NCBI RefSeq assembly: GCF_002113885.1
Contig: NW_018407435.1
Coordinates: 1,830,946-1,894,945, forward strand
Source: Mizuhopecten yessoensis
Taxonomy: Eukaryota
Direction of reading: 5' to 3'
DNA: 64,000 nt
Part shown: one piece after another, positions 18,001-21,000 of the stretch
Layout of the letters: every line of letters starts with the position of its first letter
Numbering within the stretch: position 1 is the stretch's first letter
Made by a program: the position numbers

Positions 18001-21000
18001 GGGACTCATGCAGACATGCGCTTCCTGTACAAGGACCAGCATTACCGGGGCATGGAGAAGGGTTTGTTGTACAAGTAAGTTGTCAGTTCATCATCAAACT
18101 AGGGAACATTTTCAGCTCTGACCTGATTTGGAAGCAAAGTGGAAATTATGAGTGAAAAAAATTCGAGTTCAATGTAGCCTCATTTTCACATTTTAACTCA
18201 ATGGAGTTGGAATATTTGATAAGAGGTTGGTTGGTTTACGGATTTAATGCCTACATGACACCACCGATCAGTTTTGTTTCACTGACGGAGGTCGGTGTTC
18301 TGTCAGTGTGCGATAAGGGGTACAAACCCATTCTCTTTACAGCATATAGTCCTTCAATCTGATTGGTTGTGTTTGCACTTTAACATTGATATTTAAGTCA
18401 TTTTCACCGAACAAAGGTTGCAGATGTAAGTAAGTAAGAGGTATTCACCTAGAATTTCTGCCCATTCTTTCACAGTTTGAAGAAATGTCTGCTTAATTTC
18501 TTTCGTAAAAGATACGTCAATTTATTATTAGCAGTTCCTGATATTATTTTTAAAAATAGGCTACGCGCTGGTCATACGAGTAATAAACGTGATGTAAAGA
18601 GTGACAAAAGCGTTTGAAGGTCCGAATTCTGTGTGGCCAGAGAATATTACTCCACCATGTGCTCTTGTTTGAAATAAACTACACTTCATGTATTACTATC
18701 TGCATCAAATAAAGCTTATTTACACCAGGAAGCTGAATGGTACTGTAACTTCCCTGTTGTTTCGTCCAATATCAAAAATCTGTGATGAACAGGAATGTCT
18801 GGGTGATGTGTGATTGCATGCTCTGAAACTTCCGTTGATGCATTGAACTTCCCTGTGCAGTAATAACACCGGAATTGTCTAAGTTCAGCCATGTATCCTC
18901 TGAAAATGAATATACAGTAGATAGGTCACTCAGATTGTGGATGATACGTTTTTCATCAATCATAGCCTAGTAATAGTAAGCGTTTCCCAAAATGAAATAT
19001 TCTCCGAATTCCTTATTCTCATAACAGGGTACCATGGGAGGAGCAGAACCTACTTACCCCAACAGTAATTCTGATTTCATTTCCAACTTTTGTAGGGGTT
19101 AATGTTTATCCTCTCATGTATACTTGTTACAGTAAAGTGCTTTAATTTCGCTGTGTCAAAATTTTGTGTTTTCATACCTAGAGCAAATTTGCACTACATG
19201 ATTCCCATGTGTCAGAATTCATACACGACACAGCTGTCACAGACAACTACTGGTGATGTTTTCCTAATTTCATGTGTTTGGTGTTGCCCGTTTGACATCG
19301 ATTTTAATTAGGTATTTTTTTTACTGCTAAGATGTTAATAGAGCGATAATTCCTTTTAACTCAAACCTAACATGTTACCTGTCCCCCTGACTGCCTGCAG
19401 TATTAGCATGCAATTGGGTGAAATGTCTCTATGATTATTGACAGCTTACTTAATTTACTTGATTGAGCCCACTGTGCCTTAGTGAGCTGTTTTCAGCGGT
19501 TAAGAGTCGAGACACCAGTCGTTTACACTCTTTGCTTGACAAATTAAAGAAAACAGACGTTTTCTAAATCTCACAAAATAAGGTTACAATTCCTGTTTGT
19601 GTTCAAAACCAACTTGGCCTTTATAAATCAATACTAAACTGATGAATCGTATTCCTAACACAAGTATAATACTTGTACGACCCGCGTGTGATAGTCGACC
19701 ATTGTGAGCATATTCTGTACAGTTGTAAAGATAAACTTGCTACTTTGTAGAACAGTCTTATTGGCATAGACATATACATTAGATTTTTAAATAAGAAGCT
19801 GTGTGTTTGTATGAAGAAACATTAAAGAATTTTACACTAAAATGGGAACTGTACGTTACCATGGAAACAATGTGTGTTTTCAGGGCGATAGATAAAGGTG
19901 ACATCATTACGCCCGACCAAGGACGTGAGGTGGCACGGATGATTGGTGCTCCGTACTACGAGACCAGCATCCTTTTCAACTACGGCATCGAGGATGTCTT
20001 CTTCAATGTAGTGAGAGCAGCCATGGTCGAGAGACGTAAAATAAAATTTTGGAACACACAGCTACGACGTATACAGTATCCTCTGATCCAATCACCACTG
20101 CAGGTTCCTCAGTCTTCATTTCCAACAGTCACCGTGGCAGCATCAACTTTTGACCTTAACCTTGCACAGTTGTTTAAAGATCAAAATGATGGTGATATCA
20201 TCTTTAATGTCCGGGGCGTACGTATCCGCGCACACAAGATCTGTTTGGTTATTGCTTCTGAACTTTTCCGTGAAATTCTCTTGATGGACATAAAGGAGCA
20301 AGAAGGCGGTAGTGTTCCTCAGACTAATGGAAGGACGGAGAAAAGAACTAACAAAGAGGACGAACAGGTGCTTTTGGATAATGAGGATATTCTAGAAGAA
20401 TCTCCCATCATTGATGCAAATTCTAATTGTTCGGATGACCGTATGGTACGGCATGGCAGACGAGACATTATCAGCACAAGATATTTGAACCATGCAGCAT
20501 TTGAAAAAGTTGAAACAGTACGTAGCAAGAACTCAACAGGTGAAGGTGTTCAGCAGACAGTCGTCACGGTTACGCAGGAAATCACGCCCCAGGCATTACA
20601 GTGCGTCCTGGAGTACTTGTATACTGGTCGGGTGCGAGAGGAATACAGTCAGTTGTTGGAGGTACAACAAGCTGCCGAGCTTCTCAAGTTGTTCCCTATG
20701 CTGGTGGCTCTGTCTAACTTACAAACCCAGGAGACTTACCTCAACCTGGGTCTGGAGAAACGATTCCACACCGACAGAGTGGATAAGCTTCAGGAGTTGA
20801 TTTTTGAACAGGGGCTCCTAAAGGGTAAGTTGAATTCTCCTTGGGGCTTCTAAAGGGTAAGTTGAATTCTCCTAGGGGCTCCTAAAGGGTAAGTTGAATT
20901 TTAATAGGGGCTTCAAAAGGGTAAGTGATATTGTAAAAGTGAGAAAAAAACCTTTCTTATAGGGGCATCTAAAGGAGAACTTACAACTAGAGATTAACAA

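What the first reader, a model, noticed from the sequence alone, without database searches (positions are those of the whole stretch)
20811..20927. RhoBTB exon 4 splice donor is quadruplicated; every extra donor lies beyond an in-frame stop
Seen: a 32-bp unit straddling the exon/intron junction repeats four times, giving identical AAGG|GTAAGT consensus donors at 20825, 20857, 20889 and 20921. Read-through past the first donor meets TAA at 20851-20853. Inference: only donor 1 gives full-length protein. Donors 2-4 would give NMD substrates or a GTPase+BTB1 protein lacking BTB2, so repeat copy number could act as a heritable dial on RhoBTB dosage.
Basis: partly seen in the sequence, partly recalled or inferred. 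Interest (0 to 1): 0.65.

Follow-up and report, generated by a model that had tools for sequence, protein, structure and literature searches.

The report
Repeated splice donor in scallop RhoBTB
A 32-base stretch spanning the end of an exon in a scallop RhoBTB gene has been copied in tandem, leaving three spare splice signals in the intron; the same layout is already known from several human genes, where the spare signals mostly stay unused.

Summary
Window 20810-20926 is a 32-bp tandem array of 3.7 copies at 89% identity. Its first unit is the last 15 nt of coding exon 4 plus the first 17 nt of intron 4 of the RhoBTB gene of the scallop Mizuhopecten yessoensis. AGG|GTAAGT occurs four times, with GT at 20825, 20857, 20889 and 20921; no shuffle reached four. 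Only donor 1 joined to 21275 gives the conserved protein. Donors 2-4 all lie beyond the in-frame TAA at 20851-20853.

This is a known kind of structure, a minisatellite whose first monomer spans an exon-intron boundary. Human F7, CBS, 6-16, LMNB2 and PDGF carry such arrays (PMC1557585). In those genes the most upstream donor is used alone, or together with only the next two copies.

23% of this window is tandem array, so the repeat is best read as a tolerated by-product of a minisatellite-prone genome, with mostly silent decoy donors. The "dosage dial" idea has human parallels, but nothing here tests it: I had no RNA data, no second haplotype and no DNA from another species.

The parts
16380..25350 (+). 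RhoBTB gene, coding part: 8 coding exons at 16380-16583, 17634-17737, 17883-18074, 19884-20824, 21275-21393, 22146-22385, 24227-24375, about 25180-25350
   Evidence: tblastn of the named NCBI protein P0001 (707 aa, Mizuhopecten yessoensis) against the window gives 8 segments covering residues 1-707. Pfam run exon by exon finds Ras in exons 1 and 3 and BTB in exons 4 and 6.
19884..20824 (+). Coding exon 4 (941 nt): end of the GTPase domain, BTB1 with its insert, and the linker; ends in phase 1
   Evidence: 100% identity and 100% coverage to P0001. Acceptor TTTTCAG|G and donor AGG|GTAAGT.
20810..20841 (+). Repeat unit 1: last 15 nt of exon 4, encoding (Q)GLLK and the first base of Asp481, plus the first 17 nt of intron 4. 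It holds the productive donor (GT at 20825-20826).
   Evidence: The exon part is conserved coding sequence in pectinids (GLLKD or GLLND), so this copy is the ancestral one.
20842..20873 (+). Repeat unit 2, fully intronic: pseudo-donor 2 (GT at 20857-20858); contains the in-frame TAA at 20851-20853
   Evidence: Differs from unit 1 at 2 of 32 positions. Use of this donor adds 32 nt and meets the stop at 20851.
20874..20905 (+). Repeat unit 3, intronic: pseudo-donor 3 (GT at 20889-20890)
   Evidence: Differs from unit 1 at 3 of 32 positions. Use of this donor adds 64 nt and meets the stop at 20851.
20906..20926 (+). Repeat unit 4, partial (21 nt), intronic: pseudo-donor 4 (GT at 20921-20922)
   Evidence: Differs from unit 1 at 2 of 21 positions. 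Use of this donor adds 96 nt, a multiple of three, but the frame holds five stops.
20851..20853 (+). First in-frame stop (TAA) met when donor 1 is passed
   Evidence: The ORF 19795-20853 ends here.
20954..20982 (+). Probable fifth, decayed copy of the unit; the donor GT is lost (AAAGGAGAACT where the units have AAAGGGTAAGT)
   Evidence: Member of direct-repeat family D2, 76% identical to the reference copy, 55 nt after unit 4. It matches 16 of 21 positions, the only site outside the array above 14 of 21 on the + strand of the whole window. A gapped test did not lift it above background.
20825..21274 (+). Intron 4 (450 nt) when donor 1 is used
   Evidence: The same intron position and phase are implied in 6 of 6 exon-4-like ORFs of other molluscs.
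21275..21393 (+). Coding exon 5, start of BTB2 (DIHFEVDDG...); acceptor TGTTTTGCAG|AC
   Evidence: and the alignment.

Best explanation
This is a small minisatellite in the RhoBTB gene of the Yesso scallop whose first monomer spans the exon 4 / intron 4 boundary. A 32-bp segment (15 nt of exon plus 17 nt of intron) was duplicated in tandem by slippage or unequal exchange. Each new copy landed just 3' of the original, inside the intron. Exon 4 and the first donor therefore stayed intact, and the intron gained three further copies of the same strong donor, AGG|GTAAGT. A fifth, older copy nearby has already lost its GT. Only the first donor yields RhoBTB; the others would give a stop after nine extra codons. 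The most likely behaviour (inferred, not shown) is that the splicing machinery takes the most upstream of the identical donors, as shown experimentally for the human F7 intron-7 minisatellite. Donors 2-4 would then be silent, or used at a low level with the products removed by nonsense-mediated decay. On this reading the array is a tolerated by-product of a genome very prone to minisatellites, not a regulatory device.
For: Shown here:
- The array and the four identical donors are real.
- Frame and stop are as described.
- Gene identity and exon map are established.
- The annotated protein and 12 of 12 aligned mollusc orthologues (12 of the 18 hits were aligned) need donor 1.
- The intron position is shared with 6 of 6 exon-4-like ORFs of other molluscs, which lose homology straight after L[LF][ATS]G. 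The intron therefore predates the duplication.
- The units differ by 2 to 5 of 32 positions, so the copies are not brand new, yet the gene keeps an intact 707-codon frame.
- The decayed fifth copy lacks GT.
- 14,938 of 64,000 nt (23%) of the window is tandem array with TRF score at least 80, including one array in intron 1 of the same gene. An array touching one of this gene's junctions is therefore unremarkable.
- No RNA structure sets donor 1 apart: z = -0.44, and 67 of 200 shuffles fold at least as well.

From the literature (PMC1557585; abstract, Introduction and Discussion read):
- F7, LMNB2 and PDGF use only the authentic upstream donor.
- 6-16 and CBS also use the next two pseudo-sites.
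Against: No transcript data were available, so donor usage is inferred from mammalian genes only.

The scallop sites match 8 of 9 positions of the consensus MAG|GTRAGT, far stronger than F7's UGG|gugggu. In the F7 experiments, pseudo-sites raised to a perfect consensus did draw splicing towards themselves. That paper also notes that one earlier duplicated-site study gave the opposite result.

Exon 4 is long (941 nt) and intron 4 short (450 nt). From recalled general knowledge, this favours pairing across the intron, where the donor nearest the acceptor could gain.

All 11 core columns (AAAGGGTAAGT) are unchanged in the four copies, while 6 of the other 21 columns vary. This is a weak hint of constraint on the spare donors (P = 0.06).

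The protein collection holds no transcript-derived copy of even the normal protein from this species. The absence of truncated forms (0 of 12 hits above 42% identity) therefore says nothing either way.
Confidence: 0.65

Rival explanations
1. Dosage dial. The array is copy-number variable, downstream donors capture a share of transcripts that grows with copy number, and the captured transcripts are lost to nonsense-mediated decay. Repeat length would then set the RhoBTB level heritably.
For: All three spare donors are intact and identical to the real one over -4 to +6. The core is unchanged in 4 of 4 copies (P = 0.06). In 6-16 and CBS the next two pseudo-sites are used. The title of Lievers et al. 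2001, seen only in a reference list, links the junction-spanning CBS 31-bp VNTR to reduced CBS activity. A human survey lists 9537 tandem repeats associated with splicing (PMC10078293; listing abstract only).
Against: Only one haplotype was seen, so variability is unknown. Units differ by 6-16%, unlike a fast-turning, homogenised array. In F7 the silent pseudo-sites do not compete at any of the tested copy positions. There are only 3.7 copies.
Confidence: 0.1
2. Downstream donor wins. The donor nearest the acceptor (20921) or a mix of donors 2-4 dominates, so this haplotype is a strong hypomorph or null allele of RhoBTB.
For: The donors are strong and equal. The intron is short and the exon long. 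One duplicated-site study cited in PMC1557585 gave a result opposite to upstream preference. The proximity preference for occupied 5' splice sites in mammalian extracts is recalled, not checked here.
Against: All 8 coding exons are intact and 77-85% identical to other pectinid proteins, with the invariant residues kept. Divergence between units suggests the array has coexisted with an intact gene for some time. The reference annotation uses donor 1.
Confidence: 0.07
3. Helper sites. The extra U1-binding sites raise the local concentration of U1 snRNP and improve use of donor 1 at the end of an unusually long exon, or guard the intron against premature cleavage. The copies would then be kept by selection.
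For: The 11-nt core is unchanged in all four copies while the flanks vary (P = 0.06). The idea that competing sites can enhance splicing is recalled from the literature and was not checked here.
Against: The conservation signal is not significant. The fifth copy lost its GT. There is no comparative DNA to show retention in other scallops.
Confidence: 0.06
4. Assembly artefact. The copy number, or the array itself, is an error of assembly in a repeat-rich region.
For: 23% of the window is tandem array. Tandem repeats are a known source of assembly error (PMC6868369; listing abstract only).
Against: The array is only 117 nt, shorter than a read pair. Its units carry distinct substitutions, which pins their order. 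There are no Ns nearby; the only N is at 43047.
Confidence: 0.05

Closest known systems
Human F7 intron-7 minisatellite (37-bp VNTR, 5-9 copies; Borensztajn et al. 2006, PMC1557585)
   Same: The first monomer spans the exon-intron boundary, so the authentic donor is followed by identical pseudo-donors at a fixed spacing (37 nt there, 32 nt here), all facing one acceptor.
   Different: The F7 unit holds 4 nt of exon and 33 nt of intron; here it is 15 plus 17. The F7 donor is weak (UGG|gugggu); here it is near-consensus (AGG|GTAAGT). F7 is known to be polymorphic and its splicing has been measured; here neither is known. There are only 3.7 copies, and the host is a mollusc.
Human CBS 31-bp VNTR, c.1444_1467+7(16_21) (PMC2630376 passages; PMC1557585 Introduction)
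   Same: The unit is 24 nt of exon plus 7 nt of intron, almost the same length (31 against 32 nt). The units carry single-base differences. The next two pseudo-sites are reported as used. The title of Lievers et al. 2001 links repeat number to enzyme activity, which is the nearest precedent for the 'dial' idea.
   Different: CBS has 16-21 copies against 3.7 here. Polymorphism and phenotype association are documented for CBS and not for the scallop.
Human 6-16 (interferon-inducible), LMNB2 and PDGF junction-spanning minisatellites (PMC1557585 Introduction)
   Same: [quoted passage not shown] Usage is limited to the authentic site (LMNB2, PDGF) or the authentic site plus the next two (6-16).
   Different: Many more copies (10-25) and different unit lengths (81-100 bp for PDGF and LMNB2).
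Short-range tandem splice sites (NAGNAG acceptors, GYNGYN donors; recalled, not checked here)
   Same: Several usable splice sites sit close together at one junction.
   Different: Those sites lie 3-12 nt apart, usually keep the frame and give protein isoforms. Here the spacing is 32 nt, the sites come from duplication of a whole unit, and every alternative ends in a stop.
Intron gain by tandem duplication of an AGGT-containing exon segment (recalled model)
   Same: A tandem duplication involves a splice-site motif.
   Different: That model creates a new intron inside former exon sequence. Here the intron already existed at this position and phase in other molluscs (6 of 6 ORFs), and the duplication only lengthened it.

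Membership tests
Junction-spanning minisatellite with reiterated 5' pseudo-sites (F7 IVS7 type) | Head-to-tail array of a 10-100 bp unit | tested here: met
   Period 32, 3.7 copies, 89% matches, no indels.
Junction-spanning minisatellite with reiterated 5' pseudo-sites (F7 IVS7 type) | The first monomer contains the exon-intron boundary | tested here: met
   Unit 1 (20810-20841) is the last 15 nt of exon 4 plus the first 17 nt of intron 4. The boundary is fixed by the annotated protein and by 12 of 12 orthologues.
Junction-spanning minisatellite with reiterated 5' pseudo-sites (F7 IVS7 type) | The donor sequence is repeated unchanged in the intron | tested here: met
   AGGGTAAGT occurs 4 times, exact.
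Junction-spanning minisatellite with reiterated 5' pseudo-sites (F7 IVS7 type) | Copy number varies among individuals (VNTR) | not testable with these tools
Junction-spanning minisatellite with reiterated 5' pseudo-sites (F7 IVS7 type) | Only or mainly the most upstream donor is used | not testable with these tools
   No transcript reads were available. The reference protein uses donor 1, but it comes from the same assembly's annotation.
RhoBTB atypical Rho GTPases | N-terminal Ras/Rho-type GTPase domain followed by two BTB domains and a conserved C-terminal region | tested here: met
   Exon by exon: Ras in exon 3 (27.7 bits) and weakly in exon 1 (21.3 bits against a cut-off of 21.6); BTB in exon 4 (43.6 bits) and exon 6 (24.2 bits). 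The matching named protein carries PF00071, PF08477 and PF00651. The alignment runs full length with 11 other mollusc RhoBTB proteins.
Intron gained by tandem duplication | The intron is absent at this position in relatives | tested here: not met
   6 of 6 exon-4-like ORFs of other molluscs lose homology at the same codon and phase.

The most novel reading that the evidence does not exclude
The array may be a working, copy-number-variable rheostat of productive RhoBTB splicing in scallops. Strong identical donors would compete, unlike the weak F7 sites, so each added unit would divert more transcripts into decay. On this reading intron 4 has been built up by repeated duplication of its own 5' junction, and old copies are disarmed by loss of GT, as in the fifth copy.
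Probability: 0.1. Interest if true: 0.5.

Novelty: new member of a known kind. Interest (0 to 1): 0.25.

Why it matters
If donor use were measured, this locus would be a natural test of how an invertebrate spliceosome chooses among identical, near-consensus 5' splice sites 32 nt apart. That question has so far been answered mainly with the weak sites of human F7. It would also show whether small junction-spanning repeats, which should be frequent in a genome this rich in minisatellites, cost the animal productive mRNA. As it stands, it is a clean but ordinary example of a described architecture in a new gene and phylum.

Tried and rejected
1. Truncated or read-through proteins of this species. 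A 'near' search with the exon-4 ORF, including its nine read-through codons, gave 12 hits, the best at 42% identity and none from this species. This is uninformative, because the collection shows no transcript-derived copy of the normal protein either.

2. More relic copies deeper in the intron (21024-21047 and near 21095). Local alignment scores of 21 and 20 are matched by at least 10 of 358 same-sized pieces of the window, so I claim only the copy at 20954-20982.

3. RNA structure that might hide donors 2-4. The fold of 20770-21010 is no better than shuffles (z = -0.44).

4. Known RNA families in 16000-26000. There were two weak matches far below their thresholds, neither in the array.

5. 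Selective retention of the donor core: P = 0.06 for the 11-nt core and 0.11 for the 9-nt core, not significant.

6. A dispersed repeat family as the source of the unit. No copy lies outside the array in 64 kb.

7. An order of duplication events from the alternating C/T at unit column 8. This is suggestive of a 64-bp step, but the unit tails do not fit, so I dropped it.

8. Other genes in the window. 0 of 35 further ORFs hit Pfam, and no tRNA was found.

9. Literature searches with ill-formed terms failed and were replaced.

Full report
**What is in the sequence.**
Window 20810-20926 is a head-to-tail array with period 32, 3.7 copies, 89% matches and no indels. The units start at 20810, 20842, 20874 and 20906.

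The 21-mer that covers the exon part and the donor core recurs four times with at most two mismatches and occurs nowhere else in the 64 kb on either strand. None of 100 shuffles gave a single match. The donor 9-mer AGGGTAAGT occurs exactly four times, all in the array, against 0.69 expected. None of 100 shuffles reached four.

The GT dinucleotides are at 20825, 20857, 20889 and 20921, and TAA 20851-20853 is in the exon frame.

**Which gene and which organism.**
The translation of the long exon (19885-20823) is 100% identical over its whole length to a 707-aa protein that NCBI names rho-related BTB domain-containing protein 1-like of Mizuhopecten yessoensis, the Yesso scallop. The next hits are Pecten maximus and Argopecten irradians, each at 77% over this exon. 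The window is therefore scallop, not human.

That named protein maps onto eight coding exons between 16380 and 25350, covering residues 1-707. All junctions carry GT and AG.

Pfam was run exon by exon. It finds Ras in exons 1 and 3, BTB in exons 4 and 6, and nothing in the short exons 2, 5 and 7. I did not send a joined spliced model to any search. Searches were made exon by exon, and full-length comparisons used the named database protein.

**Which donor is the real one.**
Twelve of the 18 hits were aligned. All 12 run through the exon 4/5 junction without a gap. The split codon (G|AC, Asp481) is invariant and the following DIxF..D..AHK block is conserved.

Joining each donor in turn to 21275 gives the following:

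| Donor (GT start) | Added nt | Result |
|---|---|---|
| 20825 | 0 | open frame into BTB2 |
| 20857 | 32 | stops at 20851 after nine extra codons |
| 20889 | 64 | stops at 20851 after nine extra codons |
| 20921 | 96 | stops at 20851 after nine extra codons |

Donor 4 adds a multiple of three, but the read-through frame holds five stops in 34 codons. Any product of donors 2-4 would end after the GTPase domain and BTB1 and would lack BTB2 and the C-terminal region.

**History of the array.**
The exon part of the unit encodes (Q)GLLK plus the first base of Asp481. Other pectinids have GLLKD or GLLND at this place. The exon copy is therefore the ancestral one and the intronic copies are derived.

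Six exon-4-like ORFs from genomic or transcript contigs of other molluscs lose homology straight after L[LF][ATS]G, which is the same codon and phase (6 of 6). Intron 4 is therefore old and was lengthened by the duplication, not created by it.

The units differ at 2 to 5 of 32 positions, so the copies are not brand new.

A fifth, decayed copy lies at 20954-20982, 55 nt after unit 4, in register with family D2 at 76% identity. Its first 21 nt match 16 of 21 positions. It is the only site outside the array above 14 of 21 on the + strand of the window. Its GT is gone. A gapped alignment test did not raise this copy, or two further candidates, above the background of the window: at least 10 of 358 pieces score as high. 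I call the fifth copy probable and drop the others.

**Genomic setting.**
Tandem arrays with TRF score at least 80 cover 14,938 of 64,000 nt, or 23%. Their periods run from 24 to 145 nt, and one array lies in intron 1 of the same gene. In such a genome an array that touches one of a gene's fourteen splice junctions is not surprising by position alone. What is notable is only that it was tolerated.

**How it most likely works.**
The architecture is already described. Borensztajn et al. 2006 (PMC1557585; abstract, Introduction and Discussion read) list human genes with a minisatellite whose first monomer spans an exon-intron boundary:

| Gene | Unit | Copies | Donor use |
|---|---|---|---|
| F7 | 37 bp | 5-9 | only the most upstream donor |
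| CBS | not given there (31 bp in PMC2630376) | 15-20 | authentic plus the next two pseudo-sites |
| 6-16 | not given | 25 pseudo-sites | authentic plus the next two pseudo-sites |
| LMNB2 | 100 bp | 10-15 | only the authentic donor |
| PDGF | 81 bp | 16-18 | only the authentic donor |

[quoted passage not shown] A review passage repeats this for F7 (PMC6627357, one passage).

By analogy, I expect the scallop gene to splice mainly from 20824. Any leakage would come from donor 2 and then donor 3 and would be removed by nonsense-mediated decay, because several exon junctions lie downstream of the stop. This step is inferred, not shown.

**Reasons for caution.**
- The scallop donors match 8 of 9 positions of MAG|GTRAGT, tied for best among the gene's seven donors (consensus as quoted). 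F7's sites are weak.
- In the F7 work, pseudo-sites raised to a perfect consensus did attract splicing, and one earlier duplicated-site study gave the opposite outcome.
- Exon 4 is long (941 nt) and intron 4 short (450 nt).
- The 11-nt core is unchanged in all four copies while 6 of the other 21 columns vary, but this is not significant (P = 0.06).
- No RNA structure separates donor 1 from the rest (z = -0.44).
- No known RNA family lies in the array.

**The 'dial' idea.**
It has human parallels. The CBS 31-bp VNTR is written c.1444_1467+7(16_21), meaning 24 nt of exon plus 7 nt of intron, with 16-21 copies (PMC2630376, passages). The title of Lievers et al. 2001, which I saw only in that paper's reference list, links it to reduced CBS activity. 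A human survey reports thousands of tandem repeats associated with splicing (PMC10078293, listing abstract only).

For the scallop, nothing could be tested. I had one haplotype and no reads. A search for truncated proteins of this species found none (0 of 12 hits above 42% identity). The collection shows no transcript-derived copy of the normal protein either, so this carries no weight.

**Verdict.**
The feature is real and correctly described, and its coding consequences were correctly inferred. It is a new member, in a mollusc RhoBTB gene, of a known class of junction-spanning minisatellites. The regulatory reading is possible but unsupported, and the best-studied precedents point to mostly silent decoy donors.

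Supplementary files of papers were closed and none was needed for the claims made.

Noticed in passing
whole window; e.g. 13460-14528, 28284-29886, 31739-36409, 45548-50339: 23% of the 64 kb (14,938 nt) is minisatellite array with periods of 24-145 nt, some with 40-100 copies. The long 'ORFs' in these regions are artefacts of the repeats.
   Followed up: partly
16671-17339: A 145-nt period array of 4.6 copies at 72% identity lies inside intron 1 of the same RhoBTB gene.
   Followed up: no
about 21477-21640 (+), intron 5: A stretch that looks like the tRNA-derived head of a SINE, with box A-like and box B-like motifs (my reading). ARAGORN finds no tRNA and Rfam finds nothing at E up to 1. The 24-nt start occurs only once in the window.
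   Followed up: partly
20874-20875, 20906-20907, 20961-20962: Two of the three unit boundaries in the array, and the decayed fifth copy, read TAG|GGG after a T-rich run. Each unit therefore also carries an acceptor-like AG 17-19 nt behind a donor. That is too close to pair with its own donor, and pairing across units would give frame-shifting micro-exons.
   Followed up: no
P0019, P0020, P0022-P0025 (other molluscs) against window 20815-20830: Exon-4-like ORFs of six other molluscs end their homology at the same codon and phase. The position of intron 4 is therefore shared widely among molluscs.
   Followed up: partly
1-16000 and 25500-64000: No other Pfam-recognisable coding sequence: 0 of 35 ORFs of 80 aa or more outside the arrays gave a hit. 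RhoBTB appears to be the only recognisable gene in the window.
   Followed up: partly
43047: A single N in the sequence; left as it is.
   Followed up: no
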